From: the human T2T-CHM13v2.0 reference genome, Homo sapiens
Length of the DNA: 64,000 nucleotides
Strand: one strand, 5' to 3'
NCBI RefSeq assembly: GCF_009914755.1
Contig: NC_060928.1
Positions 2,703 to 59,010 of the stretch are shown here, in pieces. Both the position numbers and the translations under genes were made by a program. Under the pieces are notes generated by a model. It ran no database searches. It was not told the origin of the DNA and saw nothing but the letters and a program-made list of their open reading frames with translations. Within the stretch, counting starts at the first letter, position 1; every line of letters starts with the position of its first letter.

Positions 2703-3256
2703 AAAATTGGATTTCTTATGCATCCACTTTATATATAAAACACATAATCTACACTTATAAAAATTATTTGGTCAGAGACCTCTCCTATGACACACTTAAA
2801 GCATCCTTCAACAACCACCTAAGAGCAAACCACTTAAGAGCACCTGCATCCTTTGCTCCTGTACTTGACTCCCTCCATATTTTCTTTTCTTTTAGAATGT
2901 ACTGTGTTTTAGAATAGTCTCACTATGTACTGGTCAGCATTTTATCCTTATCTATGTTATTCCAGGTTATTTGATGCAGAAATTGATGAGATATTCTAGG
3001 CTGACATGAGATTGTGTTTTATATACACCTAGATGATATACTAGACTGCTTACTCCAGTACTCCAGTACTTGGACACTAGAAAAACTGCTAGACTTCCCA
3101 AAGCTGTGATGTCCCCTTCACTCATTCAAAATTTATGATTCAACATCACTGAGGCTAGTGATGCTTTTTTCTTCTTGAACTATGTGACTAAATTTAGGGG
3201 AAATTTTATCCTTCTCACCATTTCCTTGAGTTTATAAAAACCAAAAATATTTTAAA

Positions 3257-5505
3257 AACCACATCATTATCTTGCCTGACACAGAAAAGCCTTTGATAAA
3301 ATTTAACAATGCTTCATGTTAAAAACTCTCAATAAACTAGGTAATGATGGAACATACCTCAATATAATAAGAGCAATTTATGACAAATCCACAGCCAATA
3401 TCATACTGAATGGGCAAAAGCTGGAAGAATTCCCTTTGAAAACCAGCACAAGACAAGGATTCCCTCTGTCACCACTCCTATTCAACACAGTATTGGAAGT
3501 TCTGGCCAGAGCAATCAGGCAAGAAAAAGATATAAAAGGTATTCAAATAGGAAGAGAGGAAGTCAAGTTGTCTCTGTTTGCCAATGACATGATTCTATAT
3601 CTAGAAAACCCCACTACATCAGCCCAACAGCTTCTTAAGCTGATAAGCAACTTCAGCAAAGTCTCAGGATACAAAACCAATGTGAAAAAAATCACAAGCA
3701 TTCCTATTCACCAACAATAGACAAGCAGAGAGCTAAATCATCAATGAACTCCCATTCACAATTGCTACAAAGAAAATAAAATACCTAGGGATACAGCTAA
3801 GAAGAGAAGTGAAGGACCTCTTTAAGGAGAACTACAAACCACATCTCAAGGAAATCAGAGGACACAAACAAATGGAAAAACATTTCATGCTCATGGATAG
3901 GAAGAATCAACATTGTGAAAATGGCCATACTGCCCAAAGTAATTAATGGATTCAATGGTATTCCCATTAAACTATCATTTATATCCTTCACAGAATTAGA
4001 AAAAAAAAACTACTTTAAAATTCATATGGAAGCAAGAAAGAGCCCGTAAAGCCAAGACAATCCTAAGCAAAAAAGAACAAAGCTGGAGGTATCATGCTAC
4101 CTGACTTTAAACTATACTACAAGGCTACAATAGGCAAAATAGCATGGTACTGGTACAAAAACAGACACACAGAGCAATGGAGCAGAACAGAGACCTCAGA
4201 AAAAAGACCACACATCTACAACCATCTGATCTTCAACCAATCTGACAAAAACAATCAATGGGGAAAGGATTATCTATGTAATAAATGGTGCTGGGAGAAC
4301 TGGCTAGCCATATTCAGAAAATTGAAACTAGACCATTTCTTTACACCTTGTACAAAAATTACCTCAAGATGAATTAAAGACTTAAATGTAAAATCCAAAA
4401 CTATAAAAAGCCTAGAAGAAAATCTAGGCAATGCCATTCAGGACATAGGCATGGGGCAAAGATTTCATGACAGAAACATTAAAAACAATTGCAACAAAAG
4501 CAAAAATTGACAAATGGTATCTAATTAAAATAAAGAGCTTCTGCACAGCAAAATAAACTGTCATCAGAGTGAACAAACTACAGAATGTGAGAAAATTTTT
4601 TTTGCAATCTAGACATCTGATAAATGTCTAATATCCACAATCTACAAGGAACTTCAACAAATTTACAAGAAAAAAAAGAACCCCATTAAAAAGTGGGCAA
4701 AGGACATGAACAGACACTTCTGAAAAGAAGACATTTATGTGGCCAACAAACATATGAAAAAAAGCTCAACATCACTAATCATTAGATAAATGCAAATCAA
4801 AACCATAATGAGATACCATCTAATGCCAGTCAGAATGATTATTAAAAAGCTAAGAAACAACAGATGCTGGTGAGGCTGTGGAGAAATAGAATGCTCTTAC
4901 ACTGTTGGTGAGAGTGTAAATTAGTTCAACCATTGTGGAAGATGATGAGGCAATTCCTCAAAGACTTAGAATCAGAAATGACATTTGACCCAGCAATCCC
5001 ATCACTGGGTACATACCCAAAGGAATATAAATCATTCTTTTATAAAGATACCTGCATGTGTATGTTCATTGCAGCATTATTGAGCAAAGACATGGAATTA
5101 ACCCAAATGCCCATCAATGATAGACTGAATAAAGAAAATGTGGTACATACACACCATGGAATACTATGCATCCATAAAGGGGGATGAGATCATGTCCTTT
5201 GCAGGGACATGGATGGAGCTGGAAGCTATTATCCTCAGCAAACTAATGCAGAAACGGAAAACCAAACACTGCATGTTCTCACTTATAAGTGGGAGCTGAA
5301 CAATGAGAACACATGGACACAGGGAGGGGAACAACACACACTGGGGCCTGTCAGAGGGTAGGGTTGGGGGAGCTATCAGGAAGAATAGCTAATGGATGCT
5401 GGGCTTAATACCTAGGTGATGTGTTGGTAGGTACAGCAAAGCGCCATGGCGCATGTTTACCTATGTAACAAAACCATCCTTCATTATCCCAGAACTTAAA
5501 AATAA
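3257..5505 (+). mobile_element. 5'-truncated older primate L1 (roughly L1PA10-16), disrupted ORF2 RT/C-terminus plus 3'UTR
   Basis: ORF fragments 3316-3720 ([21 protein letters not shown]), 4094-4372 and 4933-5187 are L1 ORF2p. The L1PA 3'UTR ends at agaacttaaaaataa. Confidence 0.95.
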
Positions 5506-13930: not shown

Positions 13931-14769
13931 ATAGTAGTTTGAGATTCAGAGAAACATGGGGAAACAGCCATGAGTAAACAAGAAGGTCCTCAAAACAAAA
14001 TCATAATCTGAATTTGGAGTTTCAGGCTAAAGGAGCAGCTCAGTGGTAATGATAGAACTGAGTCAGAGGCAGGTGGACTTTATGTAGTGTTTGATTAGCA
14101 TTTATGTCTCTGTTGTTTAATGGGTTGTGCTCTGCAACTGAAAACCCGAAGCCTGGGGATTTTTTCAGATGTTCTAATATTGGTTTGAGTACTCCTCATC
14201 CCATGACAAATTTTTGGACTTCCAACCCTATCAGGCATTTGCTAGAAAATTCTTATCTCCTCTTATTAAGCCCTCTAATAAAAAACTAGCATTCCCCAGT
14301 CTACTTTGAGATACACAGAAATAAACTCTTTGTGCTTGAAGGTAAGATAACATATGATAGGAAGAAGTCAATATTTCTGACAAATTAGGCCTCCTCAAAC
14401 AATACCCTATGTGCTCTTCCTAGTAACTGATCTTTTTGGTGGCTTCCCATATATGATTCTGCAAAGCTTCCCCTATCAAGGGATATTCTCAGTAGCAGTG
14501 GCAGCTTTTCTGTTGGCAGTGGCTTTGAAGATTATTTTTCTTTTTATTTTATTTTATTTTATTTTATTATATGTTAAGTTCTAGGGTACATGTGCACAAC
14601 GTGCAGGTTTGTTACATATGTATACATGTGCCATGTTGTTGTGCTGCACCCAGTAACTCGTCATTTACATTAGGTATATCTCCTAATACTATCTCTCCCC
14701 GCTCCTCCCACCCCATGACAGGCCCCCGTGTGTGATGTTCCCCACCCTGTGTCCAAGTGTTCTCATTGT

Positions 14770-17700
14770 TCAATTCCCACCTATGAGTGAGAACATGCGG
14801 TGTTTGGTTTTCTGTCCTTGCGAAAGTTTGCTGAGAATGATGATTTCCAGCTTCATCCATGTCCCTAAAAAGGACATGAACTCATCCTTTTTTATGGCTG
14901 CATAGTATTCCATGGTGTATATGTGCCACATTTTATTTATCCAGTCTGTCATTGATGGACATTTGGGTTGGTTCCAAGTCTTTGCTATTGTGAATAGTGC
15001 CACAATAAATATACGTGTGCATGTGTCTTTATAGTAGTATGATTTATATTCCTTTGGGTGTATACCCAGTAGTAGGATGGCTGGGTCAAATGGTATTTCT
15101 AGTTCTAGATCCTTGAGGAATTGCCACACTGTCTTCCACAATGGTTGAACTAGTTTACAGTCCCACCAACAGTGTACAAGTGTTCCTATTTCTCCACATC
15201 CTCTCCAGCACCTGTTGTTTCCTGATTTTTTAATGATCGCCATTCTAACTGGTGTGAGATGGTATCTCATTGTGGTTTTGATGTGCATTTCTCTGATGGC
15301 CAGTGATGATGAACATTTTTTCATGTGTCTGTTGGCTGAATAAATGTCTTCTTTTGGGAAGCGTCTGTTCATATCCTTTGTCCACTTTTTGATGGGGTTG
15401 TTTGATTTTTTCTTGTAAATTTGTTTAAGTTATTTGTAGACTCTGGATATTAGCCCTTTGTCAGATGGGTAGATTGTAAAAATGTTCTCCCATTCTGTAC
15501 GTTTACTGTTCATTTTGATGGTAGTTTCTTTTGCTGTGCAGAAGCTCTTCAGTTTAATTAGATCCCATTTGTCAATTTTGGCTTTTGTTGCCATTGCTTT
15601 TAGTGTTTTAGACATGAAGTCCTTGCGCATGCATATGTCCTGAATGGTATTGCCTAGGTTTTCTTCTAGGGTTTTTATGGTTTTAGGTCTAACATTTAAG
15701 TCTTTAATCCATCTTGAATTGATTTTTGTATAAGGTGTAAGGAAGGGATCCAGTTTCAGCTTTCTACATATGGCTAGCCAGTTTTCCCAGCACCATTTAT
15801 TAAATAGGGAATCCTTTCCCCATTTCTTGTTTTTGTCACGTTTGTCAAAGATCAGATGGTTGTAGATGTGTGGTATTATTTCTGCAGACTCTGTTCTGTT
15901 CCATTTATCTGTATCTCTGTTTTGGTACCAGTACCATGCTGTTTTGATTACTGTAGCCTTGTAGTATAGTTTGAAGTCAGGTAGCGTGATGCCTCCAGCT
16001 TTGTTCTTTTGGCTTAGGATTGTCTTGGCAATGCAGGCTCTTTTTTGGTTCCAGGTGAACTTTAAAGTAGTTTTTTCCAATTCTGTGAAGAAAGTCATTG
16101 GTAGCTTGATGGGGATGGCATTGCATCTATAAATTACCTGGCAGTATGGCCATTTTCATGATATTGATTCTTCCTATCCATGAGCATGGAATGTTCTTCC
16201 ATTTGTTTGTGTCTTCTTTTATTTCATTGAGCAGTGGTTTGTAGTTGTCCTTGAAGAGGTCCTTCACTTCCCTTGTAAGTTGGATTCCTAGGTATTTTAT
16301 TCTCTTTGAAGCAATTCTGAATGGGAGTTCACTCATTATTTGACTCTCTGTTTGTCTGTTATTTGTGTATAAGAATGCTTGTGATTTTTCCACATTGATT
16401 TTGTATCCTGAGACTTTGCTGAAGTTGCTTATCAGCTTAAGGAGATTTTGGGCTGAGGTGATGGGGTTTTTTACATGTACGGTAATGTCATCTGCAAACA
16501 GGGACAATTTGACTTCTTCTTTTCCTAATTGAATACGCTTTATTTCTTTCTTCTGCCTGATTGCCCTGGCAGAACTTCCAACACTATGTTGAATAGGAGT
16601 GGTGAGAGAGGGCATCCCTGTCTTGTGCCAGTTTTCAAAAGGAATGCTTCCGGTGTTTGCCCATTCAGTGTGATATTGTCTGTGGGTTTGTCATCAATAG
16701 CTCTTTTTATTTTGAGTTACGTCCCGTCAATACCCAGTTTATTGAGAGTTTTTAGCATGAAGGGCTGTTGAATTTTGTTGATGGCCTTTTCTGCATCTAT
16801 TGAGATAATCATGTGGTTTTTGTCTTTGGTTCTGTTTATATGATGGATTACATTAATTGATTTGCATATGTTGAACCAGCCATGCATCCCAGGGATGAAG
16901 ACCACTTGATCATGGTGGATAAGCTTTTTGATGTGCTGCTGGATTTGGTTTGCCAGTATTTTATTGAGTATTTTTGCATCGATGTTCATCAGGGATATTG
17001 GTCTAAAATTCTCTTTTTTTGTTGTGTCTCTGCCAGGCTTTGGTATCAGGATGATGCTGGCCTCATAAAATGAATTAGGGAGTATTCCTTCTTTTTCTAT
17101 TGATTGGAATAGTTTCAGAAGGAATGGTACCAGCTCCTCCTTGTACATCTTGTAGAATTCGGCTATGAATCCATCTGGTCCTGGACTTTTTTTGGTTAGT
17201 AGGCTATTAATTATTGCCTCAATTTCAGAACCTGTTATTGCTCTATTCAGGGATTCAACTTCTTCCTGGTTTAGTCTTGGGAGGGTGTATGTGTCCAGAA
17301 ATTTATCCATTTCTTCTAGATTTTCTAGTTTATTTGTGTAGAGGTGTTTACAGTATTCTCTGATGGTAGTTTGTGTTTCTGTGGGATCGGTGGTGATATC
17401 CCCTTGGTCATTTTTTGTTGTGTCTATTTGATTCTTCTCTCTTTTCTTCTTTATTATTCTTGCTAGCAGTCTATCAATTTTGTTGACCTTTTCAAAAAAC
17501 CAGCTCCTGGATTCATTGATTTTTTTTGAAGGGTTTTTTGTGTCTCTATCTCCTTCAGTTCTCCTCTGATCTTAGTTATTTCTCCTGTGATCTTAGTTAT
17601 TTCTTGCCTTCTGCTAGCTTTTGAGTGTGTTTGCTCTTGCTTCTCTAGTTCTTTTTGTTGTGATGTTAGGGTGTCAATTTTAGATCTTTCCTGCTTTCTC

Positions 17701-23250: not shown

Positions 23251-26076
23251 TGTAACCAAAATGTAGGTTCAGTCATTCACCACTTACAGAGTCCAATTAA
23301 CGAGAGCAAAGTCTGGTATGAAGAAAATGACTTTGATTCCAAAGTTAGCTTAGGGGAAGGATTATGGGCTCCTGCCTTAAGGGTACTGCTTTAGTTTTGG
23401 AGCAGAAAGTAGGCACTTTAAAAAGGACACTCGGCATGAATGGCACACAGGGAGAAAAATTCAGGTGGGAGTCTGTGTGACACACTTCAGTGCTTTATCT
23501 CCTGGGCGGTAAAGGTGGCACCAATGTGGGCAGAACTATGTTATACTTTTGGTTGTAAACTGATTATCATCTCTTGAGGCAATCTCCTGGTAGGAGAGCA
23601 TTCTGCTCTGGAGCTTTTAAGTAAGCACACAGTTAGATAAGCTTGCCTTGTAGGGAGTGTCTCGTGAAGGGAAGGTAAAATGTTATAACTACATGTCTAA
23701 AGAGCTAATTAGGAAGTGGGGATCTGAGAAAGAGAAGATAAAAGAGAAAAAGGCTAAACTATTGCTTGGAAAATGGGGGTACTCGGTTATAATTCCCCAC
23801 TGTCAGGTTTTATGCCATTTCTACGAGATTTGGGTACCATATTTATTCTGGCTACTTCCTGCTGAAAGGGGCATAGTTATTGGATATCAGTATGAAACTG
23901 ATCTATTTGGAGTTGGAAATATTCATAAGTATGAGGACTTAAAAATGATATTTGTTGGACAATGATGGTATGAGGTCTGGAAAGTTTCTGGGAAAGCCTG
24001 TTTTGCATTCCCATATAGAGGGTGCAACAGCAGTAAAATCTACAGCAGAGAAATATGCCTGTTCTTGCAACCAGAGCCAAAGTTACAAGTAGCATTCACC
24101 ACCAGGATGATCCTGACCCAAACCAGGATTCTAATCATTGATCTAGTGACAATATGGGGTGAAGACAAAGCTTTGATTTGTTGGCATATGTCTCACAGGG
24201 GTATCAAGACATTTCCCAAATTACCTAGGAAGTATACATTGCAGTTAGTCTTAATTATCATGCAGGTTCCCCAATGCCAGTTGTAACTGGACCTCCTATG
24301 AAGATTTGATGACAGGTTGATTAAATATGTATTTAGTAGGTTACAGGAGGAGCTATGAATGTTCATGAAGGTGGTCATAACCTCTGTCCAGTTCTTGAGT
24401 ATGAATCAATAGCTGTTTCCAATCTAGGAGGTTGTGTTACAGACGGGGTGGGCCTCTGTATGTGATAAACATAAACAGATTTTTAATAAGACGTATTTTT
24501 ATGGAAATAGAAGAAAAACAAAGGTTAATGTTTGGCACAATTTATCCAAATGTTGGACTCAAAGCATCATTAGTGCTTTGAGGGAGGCAGTGGTAGTCTG
24601 ACATGTTTTTCTCACCTGTATTACAAGAAATAAGGTAGTAGTAATTTCATTGATTCCAAATTAGAAAAATGGAAGAAAGATTCAAATGCATTAGAGACTT
24701 GTAGCAAAGAAAGAATTAAAGATTTAGTCCAAATTGCAGAAAATAATAAAAATTTAAGTACAATGAACAAGACTAGAATCTAACAACAGGTATACTGTAG
24801 TATTTTTCAGAAACATAGGTTTTCTTTCTGTAGCCTGTTTTTACTAAAAACAACTCATAGTAGGACAAATTTATTTGCAAAATAAGTTTTAGTCTTATGA
24901 TGCTTGGCCTGATTATTTTCATGAAGTGCAGAAAAAAATAGTTATCTACCATATAGGATCCCTTTAAAATTGGCTTTGCTGGAATTCTTATTTATGAGGA
25001 ATTATGGATTAGACTTTTTAAAGCCTCAAGCCCAGCCATGAATTTATTTATGCCTACCAATACCTGTATGGATTAAGTGAATTCCTCTCCTCTCAAGGTC
25101 CCAAGATAACTTGTGGCTCCTAGGTTTGTTGGAAAGTGACATTCTTTACTTACTACAGGTCATGAACCCTGTATAGGGACTGTGTAGATAAGATATGAAG
25201 CCAGTTTTTCCAAGGGGCTTTTATTGACTCTAAAAGTTCATCTTGATCCCTTAGAGTAGTCTGTTTGTATCTGAAAGCATGCTATTCCAGTCAAAGCATT
25301 GGTAAAAAAAAATCCAGTGTTTCTAATTATGTCCTGTTATGAAAGAGAACAGATTAAATTAAGTATATTTACAAATAGCTTTCAAATTTTTGAGAAATCA
25401 GGTAGAAAGAAAGTAATATGCTTAAAATTTTGCTCACAGAAGTGTACTTTAGCCAACTGTTAAAAGCTGTAAATAGGTCAAAACAGAAAAGGTTTCTGGA
25501 CTCTGAAAAACAAAAAAATTAGCAATGCTAATTATAAAATGGTCTGATTGGCTTTGGGTTGCCCACCAGCCTCAGGAGAATGTCCTTGCAGTAAAATACA
25601 TGGTAAAAACATTATACTCTCTGGTCCCATGGTCTTCACCTCTTTTGAGAGGTGTAAATATGGGATCCTTAATTTGGGGAATCTGTTTCGCCTTTCAGCT
25701 ATACCTGCTTATTAGGCCCTAGAAACTGCATGCTTTCCTAGTTTTTTTCCTTAAAATTCTCCACCAGTAATTTAATGCCAGTAATTTAATTAACTTACAT
25801 CTTTAAGACAATCTACCTGTGTAAGAGTGTCTGCTTTTTCTGGCCATCTTAACTGAAATGTTATTCACACTATTTTTGCTTGGTTTGGGTAAAATATGAA
25901 TTCTCTATCTTGTTTCACCTAAGAGTTGGCCTTTTAGTAATAAAAATTTAGAGCTCCCTAGCTGACAATCAGGACAGAGAACAGGTAATTAAAAGACTGA
26001 TAATCGAAAATGAGAAAGAGAAACTTAAAAACTGACACATGAAAAATCTTAAAACTACCAAATCTGCTTTTGTTTG

Positions 26077-31262: not shown

Positions 31263-31808
31263 ACTGATGATTAATTTTGTGTGTCAACTTGAGTGGGCCA
31301 TAGGTGCCCAGATTAAGTGTTGCTTCTGGGTGTGTCTGTGAGGGTGTTTTGGAATAAGATTGGCAATTGAATCAATGGACTAAGTGAAGCAAATTGCCCA
31401 TTCCAATGTGGTTGGCATCATCCAATCGGTTGAGGATCTTAAGAGAATAAAAGGTCTGAAGAAAGGAGAACTTCAGCGTCACTTCCCTTCATTTTCTACT
31501 TCAGTATTGAATTGAGACATTTTATCTCATCTTCTTTTGCCCTTGGTCTAGGATTTACATCATCAGCATCCTTGGTTCTCAGGCCTTTCAACTTGGACTA
31601 AATTACATCACTGGCTTTCCTGAGTCTCTAGTGTCCAGACAGCAATTTATGGGACTTCTCAGCATATATATACACACATATATATACACACATACATAGA
31701 ACCAATAGAAAATTATATATATACATATATACGTATATATGTGTGTGTATATATGTATATATATAATTTTCTATTGGTTCCGTTTCTTTGGAGAACTGTG
31801 ACAGAACA
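31263..31808 (+). mobile_element. MLT2 (ERVL) solo LTR, MLT2D-like
   Basis: tgatgattaattttgtgtgtcaacttgagtgggccat...catcatccaatcggttgagg...ttctcaggcctt...ctattggttccgtttctttggagaac. Confidence 0.88.
31699..31780. repeat. Perfect 34-bp inverted repeat with 14-nt spacer
   Basis: gaaccaatagaaaattatatatatacatatatac (31699-31732) is the exact reverse complement of 31747-31780. Confidence 0.97.
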
Positions 31809-34294: not shown

Positions 34295-36470
<2,176 letters not shown>

Positions 36471-36474
36471 GAAC

Positions 36475-36875
36475 CTATCATATGATGCAACCAGTCATAG
36501 TACCCAAGAGAAGTTAAGGCACACATTGATACAAAGCTGTTTTGTGCAAATGTTCATAAGAGCTCTAATTGTGACAGCTAAATATCAGTAACAACCTAAA
36601 TATCTATTCCTTTGCCTGTGGTCAATATCCAGTTGCTTAGCCTCTAAAGTGATGGAAGAGATTCAGTAGTTTTCTGGAGACAAGGGTGGAGGAACAAGAG
36701 GGAGGATCACAAAGCAGCAAGAGCAAACATTTGGGATGATTAATATGTTCTTTATCTTGATAATGCTGATAGTTTTATGGGTATGCACATATGGTGAAAC
36801 TTATTAAATTGTATACTTTAAATATGTTTGGTGTATTGTATGCCAATTAAACTCATTGCAGTGTTTTTAAAGAGA
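36475..36875 (+). mobile_element. Old L1M (L1ME/MC-like) 3' end
   Basis: gcaaatgttcataagagctc...aacaacctaaatatct...aaacttattaaattgtatactttaaatatg...tgtatgccaatta. Confidence 0.6.
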
Positions 36876-37041
36876 AAATAAAGTGAAAGAACAAAGAAAT
36901 CTGAGCTCTTAGCTCTCAAATAAGAATATCACATGCTTGTTTTGAATTTAAATATTCTAACTTGAAATCTTGCTTGATATAAAACCTTAGCTTGAGGCCC
37001 ACCGAGATGTGTTTTCATTGACTGGCATTGAAACTCCTCCG

Positions 37042-37237
37042 TGTTTCATCCTTATAGTTACTCAAGTATCCATTGCTGGATGAATAATTCTACTCAGCCT
37101 TTCATCCACCTGTAATTTTTCACTCGTGGTAATTGGATGCAAATTGGCTAGTGTTAATCATCAGATGTCTCTAATTAAAAACAGAAACTGGAAATGTTGT
37201 TATGAATATTGGAAGAAATGAATAAAGCAGATCAGGA
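37042..37237 (+). repeat. Left arm of a 196-bp inverted repeat (apparently unique sequence)
   Basis: tgtttcatccttatagttactc...gaataaagcagatcagga aligns without gaps to the reverse complement of 40288-40483 with 10 mismatches. Confidence 0.97.
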
Positions 37238-40200
37238 AATACTTCTCTATAGGGCCTCATGACTTACTCCTGAGTGTCATTAAACTGTAGCAGGTGAAGG
37301 TGCCCTGCTTGTATTGATGGCAGAAAAGAGACAGAAATAACCTAGAAGTCACATATGAAGTCAGTGTTTTCTAAAAATTGGGAAAGTATTCCTATAACTC
37401 AAGCACTTTTTTAAATTGAATAAATTAAGAACTTTGAAAAAGAAATTTAATTAGTCAAAAATTGGATTGGTATAATGAAATGCAGGTCAAATGGACAGTT
37501 AAAGCCTTTTAAAAAACTTGATTTCTAAAATAAAATGAAAACATGATGGATTAAAAATTTAATGGATATTTTCTGGAACCAAAGTCTCAAATTTCACAGC
37601 TTTTGGGATATAATAGAAAGTACTTGGTAGATTGAATATGATTTCATGCTCTAGGAGGATAATTAATCATAAATATCTTTCTGATTTAATTAAAATTTTT
37701 ACTTTTTAGGTTGCCCTGTGATTGCTGTCATTGATTTGGGCTTCTTTATAAAGGCTTTTTATAAATAGTCTTTAAAAGAAAGGAAAGCAGTTCTTTTATT
37801 ACTAATCCAAATAAATAGCTATGTTATTAATGTGATTGATTGATGATACATTTATTTGTTATCAGCTAATCACTTTTAATTAAGATTATAATCTCTCAAT
37901 ATTTGAAAGTTATTTGACATAAGTACTTCATTTTTACTTGTACATTGTCTGCATTTAATGTTTCTATATGGAATATTTTGTGTTAGGATTAATATTTTTA
38001 AAGGTTTAAAGATAGTGGCTGGTTTATGTATGAACCGTTCTATAATGAGCAACAGCTTCATAAGAGCCTTTCTAGCCAGCATCCTGCAGCAACATCTTCC
38101 TTCTTCCTTGCTACATAGGACCTGCTACATAGGAGCAATATTTGGTTCCCATATGCACTTTGGTCCAAGATTTGTCTTGGGTAATATCTAAGTGAGAATG
38201 GGACATTCAAAGCAAAACTAGAGTCTTCTCGGTTGCTTTCTTCTTGTCTGCTATGCCTATCTTCCTTATGTTGCCTCTCTTTGCGCCCTATTCTCTTCTA
38301 TCTAACTTCCTAGTGAACTAACTTCTATCTATCTTCCTGGCTCTGTGGATCCCAGACTCATTTCCCACTTCTGTGAAGAGTTGTTCAGGGTATCTCGGGA
38401 GCTAGGGGGCTAAGTTCCTGAGTTAGCTTCCCTGGGTACCCCGGTTCTGTTTCTTGGGAAAACCTCCCTCTCCATTACGTTCCCATGGCCTCTGATTATG
38501 CTCTCTGGAAGTTTCTTCCTTGTGACTTTCTCACCATGGAAATACCTGGAATGGACATGAGAGGACTTCTTCAGTCTACTTTCTCCCTGAGAAGGTTTAG
38601 GGTCTGAGGAATTGTTTTGAAGTTTGAATAAACACAGGTTTTTGAAAATCACACTTGAGATGGTTTTGTCTGTACAATTTCTTCAAAAAAAACGTAGTGC
38701 CTTTCTGGTCTATTTATTTTGGGCACTTCCATATATGATAACATGGCCAAATTATTGGGAAAATGATTTTTAAACCTTAGGACTGGTCTCTTGATTATTG
38801 GTCGGTTCTCTTGTTATCCAGAGACTGAAACAATGGACTTCTATAGGAAGGCAACATACTTAAGAAAGTGCAAGCAACTATCACAGATGCTCCAGTGATT
38901 TTGAGATTTCCCTACTTGCTTATTTTTAGTCCACACTACTTGTTTTGTAGCTTGAAATGGGTGAAAGCACTTGAGTGAGAAAATGAGGCTGACTTTTAAA
39001 CAAAGCTTACTTAAATAGATATGACTACTTAAATGTCTCCACAAATTTGCCAAGAGTGTTTTTGCAGCCTTATGAATTATTGTAATGTACTAAAATGTAA
39101 TGAAATTACCCATTAGATATTAATTAATATGGTAAGCATATTCCTCAACTCAATATTTGGTTAATCATCTAAGAATGTTTTTGTTTTTGCCACTTCTGAG
39201 TTATAATCATGCTAGGAAAATAACTTTGGGTGCTAAAATGTTGTATTTTGGAAAGTTTGGATAGTCTGTGAGGGCAATCAAAGTACTGTCAACACATCTC
39301 AGCATATGTGGTATTTTTCCTATAATATATTATGCAACTAATACTAATGTTTTAAAAGCTAGTCATTGTTATAGAAATATTTTTTCTATCCTATGCAAAA
39401 TAGCTTCCCTTATTGTCTTGGTGAATCATCTGCACATTTGACAGCAAATATTACTCAGGGCAGTAGGAAGAATGTAAATATGATATGGCTGTCTAATAAC
39501 CTATGTTAAACATACTAGAAATTATGTTAGGGGTCAAAATCACTAGTATGGTCTAAGAAAATAAGTTACTGATAAGCAGATCAGAGAACATGCACAACAG
39601 AATCTTTTATTGATGATATGAATGCTAATAAAGCGAAAGTGAAATGGGAGCTAATGTCTTAATTTGTAGACTATCTGTGAGATGTCACACTGAGCTGAGT
39701 TTTATTCTAATGAAGCATTGACCCTTGGAATGTGTCTAGTACTGACAGTTGAATCATTCTATTAACAAGGAAACGGAATACAGGAGAACTGATAGTCATC
39801 CACTTCCTCATAAATAACTTAAAAATGCCTGAGCAGCGGGGAGTCTGCTTTAATTTGTTTTCACTTCTATCTTATAAAACTGGTATCTCATCACATTTGT
39901 ATATTAAGTTAGTGCTGCAAATTCTAGGCCAGAAGGGTACTTACTGAATGCAATGCAATGATGATATTTGTGTACTCATTAATGCTGGGGAGCAGTTAGA
40001 GCAGCTAGCTGCAGATTTGTGATCAAAACTGTAACAACAGCAGCAGGAGAGTACCCAGGTCATTACTGAATAATAGTTGTTTCTATTCTACAAGGGATCG
40101 TGAAGAAGACAGGTCCATTAGGACCTGATTTATTTTTTCTTATTATTTGTCAAGCGTACAAATCAAATAATTTCCATGTTATTGATGAAGGAATTTTTAA

Positions 40201-40287
40201 CCAAACAATTCTGTGGTCTTCATAATTATCAGAGATACTAATAACAATCCCACATTTTTCTCCTGTGTGTCTGAATGGCCTAGAGAA

Positions 40288-40483
40288 TCCTGATCTGCTT
40301 CATTCATTTCTTCCAATATTCATAACATCATTTACAGTTTCTGTTTTTAATTAGAGACATCTAATGATTAACACTAGCCAATTTGCCTCCAATTACCACC
40401 AGTGAAAAATTACAGGTGGATGAAAGGCTGAGTAGAATTACTCACTCAGCAATGGATACCTGAGTAACTATAAGGATGAAACA
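40288..40483 (-). repeat. Right arm of the 196-bp inverted repeat
   Basis: tcctgatctgcttcattc...gagtaactataaggatgaaaca; mirror coordinate = 77525 minus left-arm position. Confidence 0.97.
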
Positions 40484-41479
40484 TTGAGTAGCCTCCAGAA
40501 TCCAAGATAGTTTCTCTTTTTGCCAAAATGAGAGCTTTGTCTTGGAAAATGGCAAAGGATATATTATTTAAATAAAGTATCCCAAATTTCCTAGGTTGTT
40601 AATGATCTGATTTGGTTTTCCTGTTTTAGAAATGAATTTTTTCTGTTGTAATTGAATGTTACTTGAACTGTTTAGCCTCACAGTGCATCAGATTGTTGAA
40701 TTTCTCAGGACTGTCTCCCAGTTGAAGAAAGCCAACTATTATTAGATTTCACCTTGTTTACATTTCAAGAAAGATCAGGGGTATATGGCTATTATTAATG
40801 ACTTTTAAGTTTTCTTAGAGTGGTTTGATATTTTCAGTACTATTTACTTTACACCATAGTTACTAGCAATGAAAGTGTGTAGGAAAAAGACCACATGAGA
40901 TGCTAGGGAACATGGTATAAAGGAAGGATTTAAACTATTCTGTAGTAACTCTGGAATGAGAGAATCTTGGATTTTAGTATAGTTCTGAAAGCAAAGAAGG
41001 GAAGTGGAAAGGTTTGAAGTCCTTGGAAGAAAAACAAAAGATATGAGTTAAGAAACAGTTTTCTGTTCTAGAACTGATGGTAGGATATAAGGACCTACAG
41101 AAAGCCTTCACTGATTCTCAATCATAATTTGCTCTGAGGTTTTTTCCTCTTATATTTCCTCTTTCAATTTTTTCTTCCATAGGAATGATGCAAGATAGCA
41201 CTAGTTATTTTACAGGGAAGATTTTTTGAACAGCTTGAGTATTCTGGTAGATATTGTTTAGATATTCTTAGAAATTCAGCCATGAAAGTTATTGCTCTAT
41301 ATTTTACCTTTCTCTGTGTTACATAGGAGCATATATATAAAAGAAGGATTCAATACTATATAGAAAGGTTCCCCATATTCCTGTCTGGAGCTATAGAATA
41401 GCGCATCTTTAGGATTCTCTGTGCAAACCAGCTAGTTAAAAAACAAAACAAAGCAAAACACAATGCTCCTAAATATAGC

Positions 41480-41670
41480 CACAAATTTATGACCCGCTCT
41501 GTGCCAGACACAATACTATTTGATCCTTACAATAATACTATGAGGGAAGATATTATCCCTATCTTGAGGATGAAGATAAGATATCAGAAATTCAGAGATA
41601 TGAGTCAAAACTGTAACTGTTGGATCTACCTCTCAAGCATGTTCTTTTTCTATCACTTTGTACCACCTCT
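41480..41670 (-). mobile_element. MIR SINE
   Basis: ctctgtgccagacac...atttgatccttacaataatactatgaggg...attatccctatcttgaggatgaagat. Confidence 0.65.
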
Positions 41671-42267
41671 TACAAAATTCTCCCTCAGCATAGAAAAAAG
41701 AACGTATCTCGATCTTCTCTATGTTTTCTCACTGATGCTGTCTGTATGGTCACTGAATAATATTGGAGTAAATGTAGCTCTTTATCAAGTTCAAAGATTT
41801 ACCATCATATCATATGAAGTATATGTTTTTGAGCTGCCTGCAACTTGAGACAATAATTTTTTTTCCTGGCACACAGCTACAACACCTTCTTCTTTTCTTA
41901 ACAACAATGGGTTTGGCTTTAATTGCCTCTTAAATACAAAGTTTAATTATAGTTGCAAAACTATTTTAAGCCATCAAACTTTCTACTACATTATAGCAAA
42001 ATTATCTTAAAAGAAGAAAAAAAATTTAACTTTAGGGAAACTTTGATAGTGATAGTAATATGATAGCATCTGAAACATATACATTATATATAAACATATA
42101 TATATTACATTTAATATATGGTGATAACTGGCATTTAATAAAATATTTTAGGTATATCAAAAGATTGAACTACAGGACTAAAATCTATGATTAAAAACAA
42201 ACAACAGAGATACCCTAAAGATTAACCAGATACTAAAATTGACAAATACTTTAAAATTTATATGGTA

Positions 42268-42430
42268 AATTGGATTGTTCGTAACACAAAGGATAAATAC
42301 TTGAGGTGATGGATATCCCACTTACCCTGATATGATGATTATACATTGTATACCTGTACCAAAATATTTCATATACCTAATAAATATATATACCTACCAT
42401 GTACCCATAAACATTAAAAATTAAAACAAT
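42268..42430 (+). mobile_element. L1MA-type 3' end
   Basis: ggattgttcgtaacacaaaggataaatacttgaggtgatggatatccc...ccctgat...tacctaccatgtaccca. Confidence 0.8.
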
Positions 42431-43520
42431 AAAATGTTTATGCCAAGTATATTCAAAAATAGAGAAAAATATAGAAATATAGAAAATAGGTAAAAAACTT
42501 TTCACAAGAAAATTGGAAACTATAAAAAGTAGTAAACAGAAGTTCTAAATAAGAAAAACATAATAACTGAAATAACCATTTGAAAGCTGTACAGATGCAG
42601 CAGAAGAGGAGATCAGTGAATTGGAAAACAGGTCAATAGAAAAACTCCAAACAGAATTTCAGAGAGAACAACTTTGAAAACAGAGAAAATACAAAAGAGA
42701 TTTGTGAGGCACATTCAAAATGTTCAACATGTTTGCAATGGAAGTCAGGAAGGGAAGAGAGAATATGAAAGAAGCAATAATTGAAATAATAATGGCTGAT
42801 AATTTTCTAAAACTGAGAAAATACAACAACTCACAAGATTCAAGAAGCTATGTGAACCCCAATCAAGGTAAGCAGAAAGAGAATAATACCTAGACAGATC
42901 ATAATAAAAGCACTGGAAATTCAGGACAAAAAACTCTTGAAAGAAGCAAGGACTGGGGCTGGGAGAGGTTGGGTGGACATCATATCTTCAAAGGAGTAAC
43001 AGTAAAGAAAAAAGACTGACAATGGACCTTTCAATAAATATAATAAAAACTAGGTGGCAATGGAATGATGTATTTGAAGTGCTAGAAAGCATAGAGTTGC
43101 CAAAGTTGAATGCTATACCTAATGAGAACTTTCTTCAAAAATAGAAGGTGAAATGGAGGCATTTTCAGAAAAAAAATTAAAGAATATGTCACCAACTTAC
43201 ATGAATTGAAATAAAAATTAAAAGGTATAAGGAAAATGATTCCAGATGCAAAAAATTAGAAAATGCAGAAACAATGAAGGACAATAGAAATAATAAATAT
43301 ATAGTTAAATATCAATGAGCAGTGATTGCTCAGAACAACAATAATAATATTTGTGAGATTTAAATGTGAGATTTAAATGTATTTGAATGTATTACAAATG
43401 TAATTAAATGTGTTACATATGTATTACAATCCACAAAAGATGTGATTGGGGCTAATAAAGTTAAAATCTTCTAAAGCTGAAGAAATATTAGCAGTGTGTT
43501 TAAGATAATAATTTGCTGTT

Positions 43521-43801
43521 GGCTGGGTGTGGTGGTTCATACCTATAATCCCAGCACTTTGGGCAACCAAGGCTGTAGGGTTGCTTGAGGCCAGGAGCAT
43601 CAGACCATCCTGGGCAACTTAATGAGACCCTGCCTCTACAAAATTTAGCCAGGCATGGTGGTGCATACCTGTAGTTCCAGCTACTTGGTGGGGACGCTGA
43701 GGTGGAAGGATCACTTAAGCCTGGGATTTCAATGCTGCAGTAAGCTGTTATTGTGCCACTGCACTCCAGCCTGGGTAACAAAGTGAGACCCTGTCTCAAA
43801 A
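43521..43801 (+). mobile_element. AluJ SINE with 19-bp TSD
   Basis: Diverged dimer with gaccctgtctc ends; TSD aagataataatttgctgtt/aagataataatgtgctgtc. Confidence 0.93.
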
Positions 43802-44149
43802 AAGATAATAATGTGCTGTCTACTATAATAAACCAAGGATGTATGTTGTTATATCTTGGATAAAGTAATAGTAAACAAATGAATAACAAGTAATTTAAGA
43901 GTGCTAATTGGATTAACAAAAAATACATGACAAATCCAACATAAGTTTAGAAAGAAAATAAAAGAAATATAAATAGGTATATCAAATTGAAAACAAATAA
44001 CAATATAGTATATGTTACCAGAAATATATCAGTGATTATATAAAATGCAAATGCTGTAAAATCCACATGTAAAAGTCCAAAATTTCCAGACTGAATACAA
44101 CACCAAAATCCTACTTTATGCTGCTTAAGAGAGACATGATTTAAATAGT

Positions 44150-56157: not shown

Positions 56158-59010
<2,853 letters not shown>

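What the first reader, a model, noticed from the sequence alone, without database searches (positions are those of the whole stretch)
37042..40483. 196-bp ungapped, ~95%-identical inverted repeat of non-transposon sequence bracketing a 3.05-kb spacer
Seen: 37042-37237 matches the reverse complement of 40288-40483 at 186/196 positions with no indels; the longest perfect run is 40 bp. A degenerate inward extension follows (ttctctatagggcc at 37243-37256 vs ggcctagagaa at 40277-40287). I recognise no Alu, L1, LTR or MER sequence in the arms, and there is no TSD or transposase. For comparison, the paired LTRs at 23251 and 27393, identical at insertion, are only about 80% identical over the 100 nt compared. 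Inference: the arms are either a young inverted duplication or are kept similar by gene conversion, recurrent inversion or selection for pairing. Possible roles are a long-range dsRNA stem in a host pre-mRNA or lncRNA (ADAR substrate, loop-out, back-splicing), an invertible 3-kb segment, or a mirrored enhancer pair.
Basis: partly seen in the sequence, partly recalled or inferred. Interest (0 to 1): 0.85.

Follow-up and report, generated by a model that had tools for sequence, protein, structure and literature searches.

The report
Small old inverted duplication, unique DNA
Two mirror-image copies of a roughly 200-base stretch of single-copy human DNA sit 3 kb apart in a gene desert on chromosome 4; they look like the neutral scar of one old rearrangement rather than a working element.

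Summary
Window 37042-37237 matches the reverse complement of 40288-40483 at 186 of 196 positions with no indels. The longest perfect run is 40 and the spacer is 3,050 nt.

The arm has exactly two copies in the whole T2T human genome, both here. The spacer matches only itself. The same search finds 71-83% identical old repeats next door, so the arms are not a multi-copy transposon family.

There is no target-site duplication, no Pfam domain in 8 of 13 spacer ORFs and no Rfam family.

Homology stops sharply at both ends. The only exception is a shared 7-mer displaced by 5 nt at the inner edge. The ten mismatches are scattered as chance predicts, so there is no sign of a gene-conversion tract.

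A divergence of K = 0.053 suggests an age of tens of millions of years.

My best reading (0.7) is a one-off inverted duplication made during break repair or a replication template switch, possibly together with inversion of the 3-kb segment, and drifting neutrally since.

Nothing I could run supports a role as a dsRNA stem, an invertible switch or an enhancer pair. No outgroup genome, transcript data or population data were available. Interest is low.

The parts
37042..37237 (+). Arm A, core of the inverted repeat (196 nt)
   Evidence: 186 of 196 identical to the reverse complement of arm B, no indels. One of only two genome-wide matches.
40288..40483 (-). Arm B, core of the inverted repeat (196 nt), the mirror image of arm A
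   Evidence: It is the second of the two genome-wide matches, 94% identical over 204 nt.
37238..40287 (.). 3,050-nt spacer of single-copy, AT-rich (GC 0.344) non-coding DNA
   Evidence: Only a self-match in the whole genome, 1 candidate. No Pfam domain in 8 of the 13 stop-to-stop ORFs of 50 aa or more. No Rfam match above threshold. Only trivial tandem repeats. 13 CpG.
37034..37041 (+). Doubtful 8-nt outer extension of arm A (partner 40484-40491)
   Evidence: 5 of 8 match. P = 0.006 that this is the same 5% divergence as the core. Probably outside the duplicated unit, or imperfect junction homology.
37243..37249 (+). TTCTCTA, 5 nt beyond the inner end of arm A. The same 7-mer (as reverse complement) lies directly at the inner end of arm B, 40281-40287. 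It is a possible frayed inner edge or junction microhomology.
   Evidence: Rare in a post-hoc test: 589 of 200,000 shuffles. Not significant in the gapped anchored-extension test.

Best explanation
The two arms are the product of a single old rearrangement. It copied about 200 bp of single-copy intergenic DNA in inverted orientation to a site 3 kb away. The likely route is break repair or a replication template switch. Two versions fit equally well: (a) an inversion of the 3-kb segment in which one breakpoint was staggered or re-copied, so that the breakpoint sequence ended up at both ends in mirror image; or (b) a templated inverted insertion with the spacer left in place. I put these at roughly even odds. 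Since then both copies have drifted neutrally to about 5% divergence. That puts the event at tens of millions of years ago, most likely in an anthropoid or catarrhine ancestor. The structure has no demonstrated function. Its only predictable properties are physical. It would form a roughly 190-bp imperfect RNA duplex if one transcript ever spanned both arms, and it is a weak substrate for fold-back or inversion.

Shown here: the repeat, its copy number of two, the unique spacer, the sharp edges and the random placement of mismatches. Inferred: the mechanism, the age and the neutrality.
For: 1. Not a transposon family. The 204-nt arm finds exactly 2 places in the 3.1-Gb genome, 2 candidates with both scored. 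The spacer finds only itself.
2. The search is sensitive enough. For the 4.5-kb query, 39 of 42 listed matches (193 candidates, 40 scored) are 71-83% identical copies of an old repeat, all within window ~36663-36900 just upstream of arm A.
3. No hallmarks of transposition. There is no target-site duplication at the outer edges, no Pfam domain in 8 ORFs and no poly-A at either arm.
4. It is a discrete unit. Anchored extension into 150-nt flanks does not beat chance. The inner score of 0.5 is reached by 300 of 400 shuffles and 436 of 595 real pairs. The outer score of 5.0 is reached by 69 of 400 shuffles and 107 of 595 real pairs. So it is not the preserved core of a larger decayed duplication.
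5. There are no indels in 196 nt. The 10 mismatches (6 transitions, 4 transversions) are spread as random placement predicts: longest run 40 against a simulated mean of 52.
6. Age. K80 = 0.053 gives 26.5 Myr at 1e-9 per site per year and 53 Myr at 0.5e-9. The rates are recalled, not from a call.
7. Precedent for the mechanism. In Drosophila, 17 of 29 fixed inversions carry inverted duplications of non-repetitive breakpoint sequence. The median is 321 bp and the range is 46 bp to about 1.9 kb. In 12 cases only one breakpoint is duplicated, and identity is 88% +/- 5.4% (Ranz et al. 2007, PMC1885836, passages).
8. Base rate. Non-repetitive inverted repeats within 10 kb run at about 2 per Mb in the human genome, with loops around 2 kb (Andrews and Bass preprint, PMC11838218, sections 7 and 9).
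Against: No outgroup genome could be consulted. The single-copy ancestral state, the age and the neutrality are therefore all inferred from one haplotype.

The arms lie in a stretch of about 5.4 kb (~36900 to ~42276) with no detected interspersed repeat, in a gene desert. That is the kind of place where constrained regulatory DNA is found. If both arms were constrained, 95% identity could be much older than estimated.

Arm A carries an exact ATGCAAAT octamer at 37137-37144, which arm B lacks. The motif name is recalled, and one such hit is not significant.

On a minus-strand transcript, 5 of the 6 transition mismatches would be G-U wobbles, against 1 of 6 on the plus strand. This is a mild asymmetry in the direction expected for a selected stem, but at n = 6 my own binomial estimate is about 0.2 two-sided.
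Confidence: 0.7

Rival explanations
1. The duplication is much older, and the arms are kept alike by intrachromosomal gene conversion or by repeated NAHR inversion ('toggling') of the 3-kb segment.
For: Inverted repeats of at least 200 bp flank 132 of 183 sequence-resolved balanced human inversions (Porubsky et al. preprint, 10.1101/2021.12.20.472354, passages). This pair sits just at that length. The arms are close together (3 kb).
Against: There is no long identical tract. The longest run is 40, shorter than the simulated mean of 52. There is no decayed homology outside the arms, which an old larger duplication with a converted core would leave. Recurrent inversions mostly have flanking repeats of 10 kb or more, 23 of 32. 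No inversion is listed at T2T chr4:173.7-173.99 Mb in the supplements of PMC10150506, which has 31 chr4 mentions in T2T coordinates. Nor does any number starting 17388 appear in the held supplement of PMC12350169. Those files may be truncated, and their coordinate systems were only checked for the first. A 40-nt maximum of perfect identity is below the uninterrupted homology usually quoted for efficient mammalian recombination (recalled, no call).
Confidence: 0.08
2. The pair is under selection. It could be a long-range RNA stem in an unannotated transcript (ADAR or dsRNA-binding substrate, loop-out), or two mirrored copies of a constrained regulatory element.
For: The predicted duplex is very stable: -309 kcal/mol with 190 pairs on the plus strand and -327 kcal/mol with 194 pairs on the minus strand. 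On the minus strand 5 of 6 transition mismatches are G-U. The arms lie in a repeat-poor block in a gene desert. Arm A has an ATGCAAAT octamer and several TAAT cores, by direct reading with recalled motif names. Conserved non-repeat dsRNAs do exist in human: 1,502 with phastCons of 0.9 or more (PMC11838218, section 12).
Against: No gene is annotated in the window (hub note) and there is no Rfam family. With two sequences no compensatory change can be scored. The conserved dsRNAs in that survey are shorter, less paired and mostly inside genes, which is unlike this long, 95%-paired intergenic pair. Long, highly paired dsRNAs are mostly intergenic and unedited, which the authors read as poorly tolerated in genes (section 10). 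By my own rough count, TAAT cores in the arm are about what 65% A+T predicts. The octamer is broken in arm B at the 37138 mismatch.
Confidence: 0.07
3. The arms are terminal inverted repeats of an old, very low-copy DNA transposon, or two copies of an unrecognised rare repeat family.
For: The layout looks like terminal inverted repeats bracketing about 3 kb.
Against: Only two copies exist genome-wide. The internal 3 kb has no other copy. There is no target-site duplication and no transposase-like domain in 8 of 13 ORFs. Human DNA transposons are old (recalled), so their independently decaying ends should not be 95% alike. Dfam or RepeatMasker could not be run here.
Confidence: 0.03
4. The structure is an assembly artefact (fold-back or chimeric read) in the reference.
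For: None found.
Against: The arms differ at 10 of 196 positions and are separated by 3 kb of unique sequence. A fold-back artefact would give near-identical arms.
Confidence: 0.01

Closest known systems
Inversion-coupled inverted duplications of non-repetitive breakpoint sequence (staggered-break model; Ranz et al. 2007, PMC1885836, passages read)
   Same: The arms are ancestrally unique sequence in mirror orientation at the two ends of a segment. The arm length (about 200 bp) lies inside the reported range of 46 bp to 1.9 kb, median 321 bp. Duplication of only one breakpoint is the commoner case there (12 inversions). The duplicates decay neutrally (88% +/- 5.4% identity there).
   Different: Those are chromosomal inversions in Drosophila shown by outgroup comparison. 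Here the segment is only 3 kb, the species is human, and it is not shown that the spacer is inverted relative to the ancestor.
Human complex structural variants of the duplication-plus-inversion type (dupINV, dupINVdup) ascribed to replication-based template switching. The class is recalled. PMC6286558 was seen only as a search listing that holds the terms.
   Same: An inverted copy of flanking sequence joined to an inverted or adjacent segment, with junctions that may carry microhomology or small indels. The displaced 7-mer at the inner edge fits that.
   Different: The described cases are rare or pathogenic polymorphisms with kb-scale duplications. This one appears to be fixed, old and only about 200 bp. 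Its fixation is not tested.
Non-repetitive predicted dsRNAs of the human genome (dsRNAscan; Andrews and Bass preprint, PMC11838218, sections 7, 9, 10, 12 and 20 read)
   Same: Inverted repeat within a 10-kb span, not made of repeats, with a loop of a few kb. That class runs at about 2 per Mb.
   Different: It is longer and better paired than the median of that class (75-144 bp). It is shorter than their 300-bp 'MDA5-type' cut-off. There is no evidence here that it is transcribed. Whether it is already in their catalogue could not be looked up.
Inverted repeats that mediate polymorphic inversions by NAHR (Porubsky et al. preprint, 10.1101/2021.12.20.472354, passages)
   Same: Flanking inverted repeats of about 200 bp are the lower bound used there for 'NAHR-consistent' inversions.
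   Different: No inversion is listed here in the searchable callsets. Recurrent inversions mostly have repeats of 10 kb or more. The longest perfect identity here is 40 nt.
DNA transposon with terminal inverted repeats
   Same: Two inverted terminal arms around an internal segment.
   Different: No target-site duplication, no transposase, no other copy of arms or interior in the genome.

Membership tests
Interspersed repeat (transposable element) family | Many dispersed, diverged copies in the genome | tested here: not met
   The arm has 2 candidates and 2 matches, both at this locus. The spacer matches only itself. The same tool finds 71-83% identical copies of a neighbouring old repeat. Dfam or RepeatMasker was not available.
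DNA transposon with terminal inverted repeats | Target-site duplication directly outside the two arms | tested here: not met
   The 8 bases outside arm A and outside arm B on the plus strand share no direct repeat (direct reading).
DNA transposon with terminal inverted repeats | Transposase remnant inside, or related copies elsewhere | tested here: not met
   No Pfam family at E <= 0.1 apart from one 13-bit chance hit, in the 8 of 13 stop-to-stop ORFs of 50 aa or more that I submitted. No other genomic copy.
LTR retroelement | Two long terminal repeats in direct orientation | tested here: not met
   The arms are inverted.
Segmental duplication (usual definition of at least 1 kb and at least 90% identity, recalled) | Length of at least 1 kb | tested here: not met
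   Homology is 196-204 nt and does not extend into the flanks.
Rearrangement-coupled inverted duplication (staggered break or template switch) | Mirror-image copies of ancestrally unique sequence at the ends of a segment, with sharp edges | tested here: met
   The size lies within the range reported by Ranz et al..
Rearrangement-coupled inverted duplication (staggered break or template switch) | Outgroup species with a single copy (and, for the inversion version, the opposite spacer orientation) | not testable with these tools
   No vertebrate genome other than the window's own is held. The genome search states the genome 'has no relatives here'.
NAHR-mediated polymorphic inversion | Flanking inverted repeats of about 200 bp or more | tested here: met
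   196-204 nt at 94-95% identity. This is borderline against the 200-bp criterion.
NAHR-mediated polymorphic inversion | Both orientations seen among human haplotypes | tested here: inconclusive
   No entry at T2T chr4:173.7-173.99 Mb in the supplements of PMC10150506. No number starting 17388 in the held supplement of PMC12350169. The files may be cut, the coordinate system of the second was not verified, and no assemblies were inspected.
Long intramolecular dsRNA / ADAR substrate | Two complementary arms within one transcript's reach | tested here: met
   Predicted duplex of 190-194 pairs, -309 to -327 kcal/mol, loop 3,050 nt.
Long intramolecular dsRNA / ADAR substrate | Both arms transcribed on one RNA, with A-to-I editing or duplex reads | not testable with these tools
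   No gene is annotated in the window (hub note). No expression or editing data were available.
Described RNA family (Rfam 15) | Match reaching the family's gathering score | tested here: not met
   One match only in 36000-41500, sR11, at 23.8 bits against a gathering score of 39, E = 0.3.
Conserved non-coding element | Cross-species sequence conservation above the neutral level | not testable with these tools
   No alignments or outgroup genomes were available.

The most novel reading that the evidence does not exclude
The two arms are not a decaying scar but a selected pair. They would be an ancient (pre-primate) mirrored duplicate of a constrained element, or a 190-bp long-range stem in an unannotated gene-desert transcript. 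Their 95% identity would then reflect purifying selection on both copies or on their pairing. The 5-of-6 G-U bias on the minus strand, the repeat-free 5-kb setting and the homeodomain/POU-like motifs would then be meaningful rather than chance.
Probability: 0.07. Interest if true: 0.6.

Novelty: new member of a known kind. Interest (0 to 1): 0.15.

Why it matters
As it stands it matters little. It is one of the few thousand non-repeat inverted repeats expected in a human genome, at about 2 per Mb. It sits in unannotated intergenic DNA.

Its modest value is as a clean, datable example of a small inverted duplication of unique sequence. With ape and monkey assemblies it could show whether such scars in primates arise together with micro-inversions, as in Drosophila, or as templated insertions.

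If the arms proved conserved beyond primates or transcribed together, the case would become interesting as a long, nearly perfect, non-repeat duplex that the genome tolerates.

Tried and rejected
- **Decayed homology beyond the arms** (old large duplication with a preserved core). The anchored-extension test on 150-nt flanks was not above chance. A gapped local alignment added only low-identity AT-rich blocks: 13 of 16, 10 of 16, 15 of 27 and 7 of 14.
- **Other copies in the window.** None. Only unrelated old-repeat matches at 36057-36192.
- **RNA families.** None above threshold.
- **Coding or transposase remnants.** None. 5 of the 13 ORFs were not submitted.
- **Tandem arrays.** 7 trivial rows, all 2.9 copies or fewer.
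- **Gene-conversion tract.** Not indicated.
- **Converting the position to older assemblies through neighbouring gene names.** Passages in PMC9359180, PMC13023369 and PMC3544904 placed the locus only roughly, between AADAT and HSP90AA6P. This was too coarse, so I dropped it and searched supplements by T2T coordinates only.
- **Inversion callsets.** No entry found.
- **Ape-genome supplement (PMC12058530).** It may hold lineage-specific inversion tables that bear on the age and orientation claims.
- **A second, pattern-based copy-number check in the own genome.** It got no answer for technical reasons. Copy number therefore rests on the BLAST-type search alone.
- **PMC3176832 (Drosophila inverted duplicates).** Seen as an abstract only and not used as evidence.
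- **PMC10164571.** Seen only as the start of its abstract in a search listing.
Full report
**Observation**

The window is human T2T-CHM13 chr4:173,848,001-173,912,000 (hub note; confirmed). Reading both places and comparing them by script shows the following:
- 37042-37237 equals the reverse complement of 40288-40483 at 186 of 196 positions.
- There are no indels.
- The longest perfect run is 40.

The repeat finder lists it as the only inverted pair in 35000-43000. It gives 204 nt at 94% complementarity with 3,050 nt between the arms. blastn gives E = 2e-85. Among the 41 non-self HSP pairs of the whole window it is the most identical.

**What it is not**

It is not a multi-copy repeat:
- A search of the whole 3.1-Gb assembly with the 204-nt arm returned two candidates and two matches, namely the arms themselves.
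- The 3,050-nt spacer returned only itself.
- The tool is sensitive enough to see old repeats. With 36500-41000 as the query it raised 193 candidates, scored 40 and listed 42 matches. These were the self-match, the two arm cross-matches, and 39 copies at 71-83% identity. All 39 fall in query positions 164-401, which is window ~36663-36900, an old interspersed repeat about 140 nt upstream of arm A.
- To the right, the nearest detected repeats are at ~42276-42411 (one weak match) and an Alu-sized element at ~43518-43811 with 11,687 candidates.

The arms and spacer therefore sit in about 5.4 kb without detected repeats. The tool scores only the best candidates, so this is a lower bound on repeats.

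It also lacks the marks of a mobile element or a gene:
- The bases just outside the arms share no direct repeat, and there is no poly-A.
- The spacer has 13 stop-to-stop ORFs of 50 aa or more, the longest 94 aa. The 8 I submitted have no Pfam match apart from one 13-bit chance hit.
- Rfam gives one sub-threshold hit, E = 0.3.
- Tandem Repeats Finder gives 7 trivial rows.
- GC is 0.35 in the arms and 0.344 in the spacer. CpG counts are 2, 0 and 13.

**Edges**

An alignment anchored at each arm boundary and run into 150 nt of flank does not exceed chance:

| Flank | Score | Shuffles reaching it | Random real pairs reaching it |
|---|---|---|---|
| Inner | 0.5 | 300 of 400 | 436 of 595 |
| Outer | 5.0 | 69 of 400 | 107 of 595 |

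The 8 outer bases that the repeat finder adds match at 5 of 8. That has P = 0.006 at the core's divergence, so the unit starts at about 37042.

At the inner edge, arm A is followed by 5 extra bases and then TTCTCTA. Arm B is followed by TTCTCTA directly. A post-hoc test finds such a shared 7-mer within 20 nt in 589 of 200,000 shuffles and 663 of 200,000 random real pairs. I read this as either a frayed inner end (a small indel) or junction microhomology. It is suggestive only.

The repeat is therefore a discrete unit of about 200 bp. It is not the preserved core of a larger decayed duplication.

**Divergence**

The ten mismatches are 6 transitions and 4 transversions. Their placement is what random scatter gives. 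The longest identical run is 40 against a simulated mean of 52, and 82% of simulations reach 40. No conversion tract is visible.

K80 is 0.053. With recalled rates of 1e-9 and 0.5e-9 per site per year, that is 26.5 and 53 Myr. The extremes of the 95% intervals are 12.6 and 98 Myr. This is an inference from one haplotype and assumes neutrality.

**Pairing potential**

RNA duplex prediction gives -309 kcal/mol (190 pairs) for a plus-strand transcript and -327 kcal/mol (194 pairs) for a minus-strand one. On the minus strand 5 of the 6 transition mismatches become G-U, and on the plus strand 1 of 6 does. With six events this asymmetry is not significant (my own binomial estimate).

No gene is annotated in the window (hub note). 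I had no expression or editing data.

**Inversion polymorphism**

- The supplements of Porubsky et al. 2023 (PMC10150506) give inversions in T2T coordinates as chr, start, end. 'chr4' occurs 31 times, and none is at 173.7-173.99 Mb.
- The one held supplement of the HGSVC paper (PMC12350169) contains no number beginning 17388.
- Both negatives are limited. The files may be cut, and the coordinate system of the second was not checked.
- For context, 132 of 183 resolved balanced human inversions have flanking inverted repeats of 200 bp or more. However, 23 of 32 recurrent ones have repeats of 10 kb or more (preprint 10.1101/2021.12.20.472354, passages).

**Mechanism**

The anatomy matches what Ranz et al. 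described for Drosophila (PMC1885836, passages):
- Inverted duplications of non-repetitive breakpoint sequence lie at the ends of inverted segments in 17 of 29 inversions.
- The median is 321 bp, with a range of 46 bp to about 1.9 kb.
- In 12 inversions only one breakpoint is duplicated.
- Identity is 88% +/- 5.4%.
- The authors explain this by staggered breaks, fill-in and end joining.

Human complex variants of the duplication-plus-inversion type, ascribed to replication template switching, are a second precedent. That class is recalled, and PMC6286558 was seen only in a search listing.

I cannot tell from one genome whether the spacer was inverted in the event or whether one arm was simply inserted as a templated inverted copy. 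The two versions predict different outgroup orientations.

**Base rate**

Andrews and Bass (preprint PMC11838218; sections 7, 9, 10, 12 and 20 read) scanned the human genome for inverted repeats within 10 kb. They report:
- Non-repetitive ones occur at about 2 per Mb.
- Median lengths are 75-144 bp.
- Loops are around 2 kb.

This pair is a long, well-paired member of a class of thousands. It is probably already in such catalogues, but I could not look it up.

**Verdict**

It is a real, non-transposon, two-copy inverted repeat. It is best explained (0.7) as the neutral scar of one old rearrangement.

| Rival explanation | Confidence |
|---|---|
| Gene conversion or toggling | 0.08 |
| Selection on pairing or on a mirrored element | 0.07 |
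| Rare transposon | 0.03 |
| Assembly artefact | 0.01 |

The decisive test is comparison with ape, monkey and non-primate orthologues. It could not be run because no other vertebrate genome is held. The ape-genome supplement could not be opened because paper reading closed. Interest is low (0.15). It is a new member of a known kind.

Noticed in passing
window 36663-36900: Old interspersed repeat just upstream of arm A. There are 193 genome-wide candidates, and 39 scored copies at 71-83% identity. The family was not named because no repeat library was available.
   Followed up: partly
window 43518-43811 (and a weak match at 42276-42411): Alu-sized (~290 nt) high-copy repeat, with 11,687 candidates and scored copies mostly 76-79% identical. 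Between ~36900 and ~42276 no interspersed repeat was detected. This is a repeat-poor block of about 5.4 kb around the finding.
   Followed up: partly
window 14544-16921 and 56488-58867: A much larger inverted pair, 2,382 aligned positions at 92.3% identity with 6 gaps, about 40 kb apart. Both copies lie in stretches the hub lists as masked repeats. 3254-5472 is a third, 82% identical copy. This would be a stronger potential NAHR substrate than the finding itself.
   Followed up: no
These are direct repeats 4.14 kb apart, 78.3% identical over 548 aligned positions with 18 gaps. This is compatible with the two LTRs of one old element. The interior was not examined.
   Followed up: partly
window 31699-31780: An 82-nt near-palindrome, 90% self-complementary. 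It is a TA/TG-rich core bracketed by a 15-nt perfect inverted repeat.
   Followed up: no
window 37137-37144: Arm A carries an exact ATGCAAAT (octamer motif; the name is recalled). The mismatch at 37138 changes it to AGGCAAAT in arm B. A single motif hit is not significant on its own.
   Followed up: no
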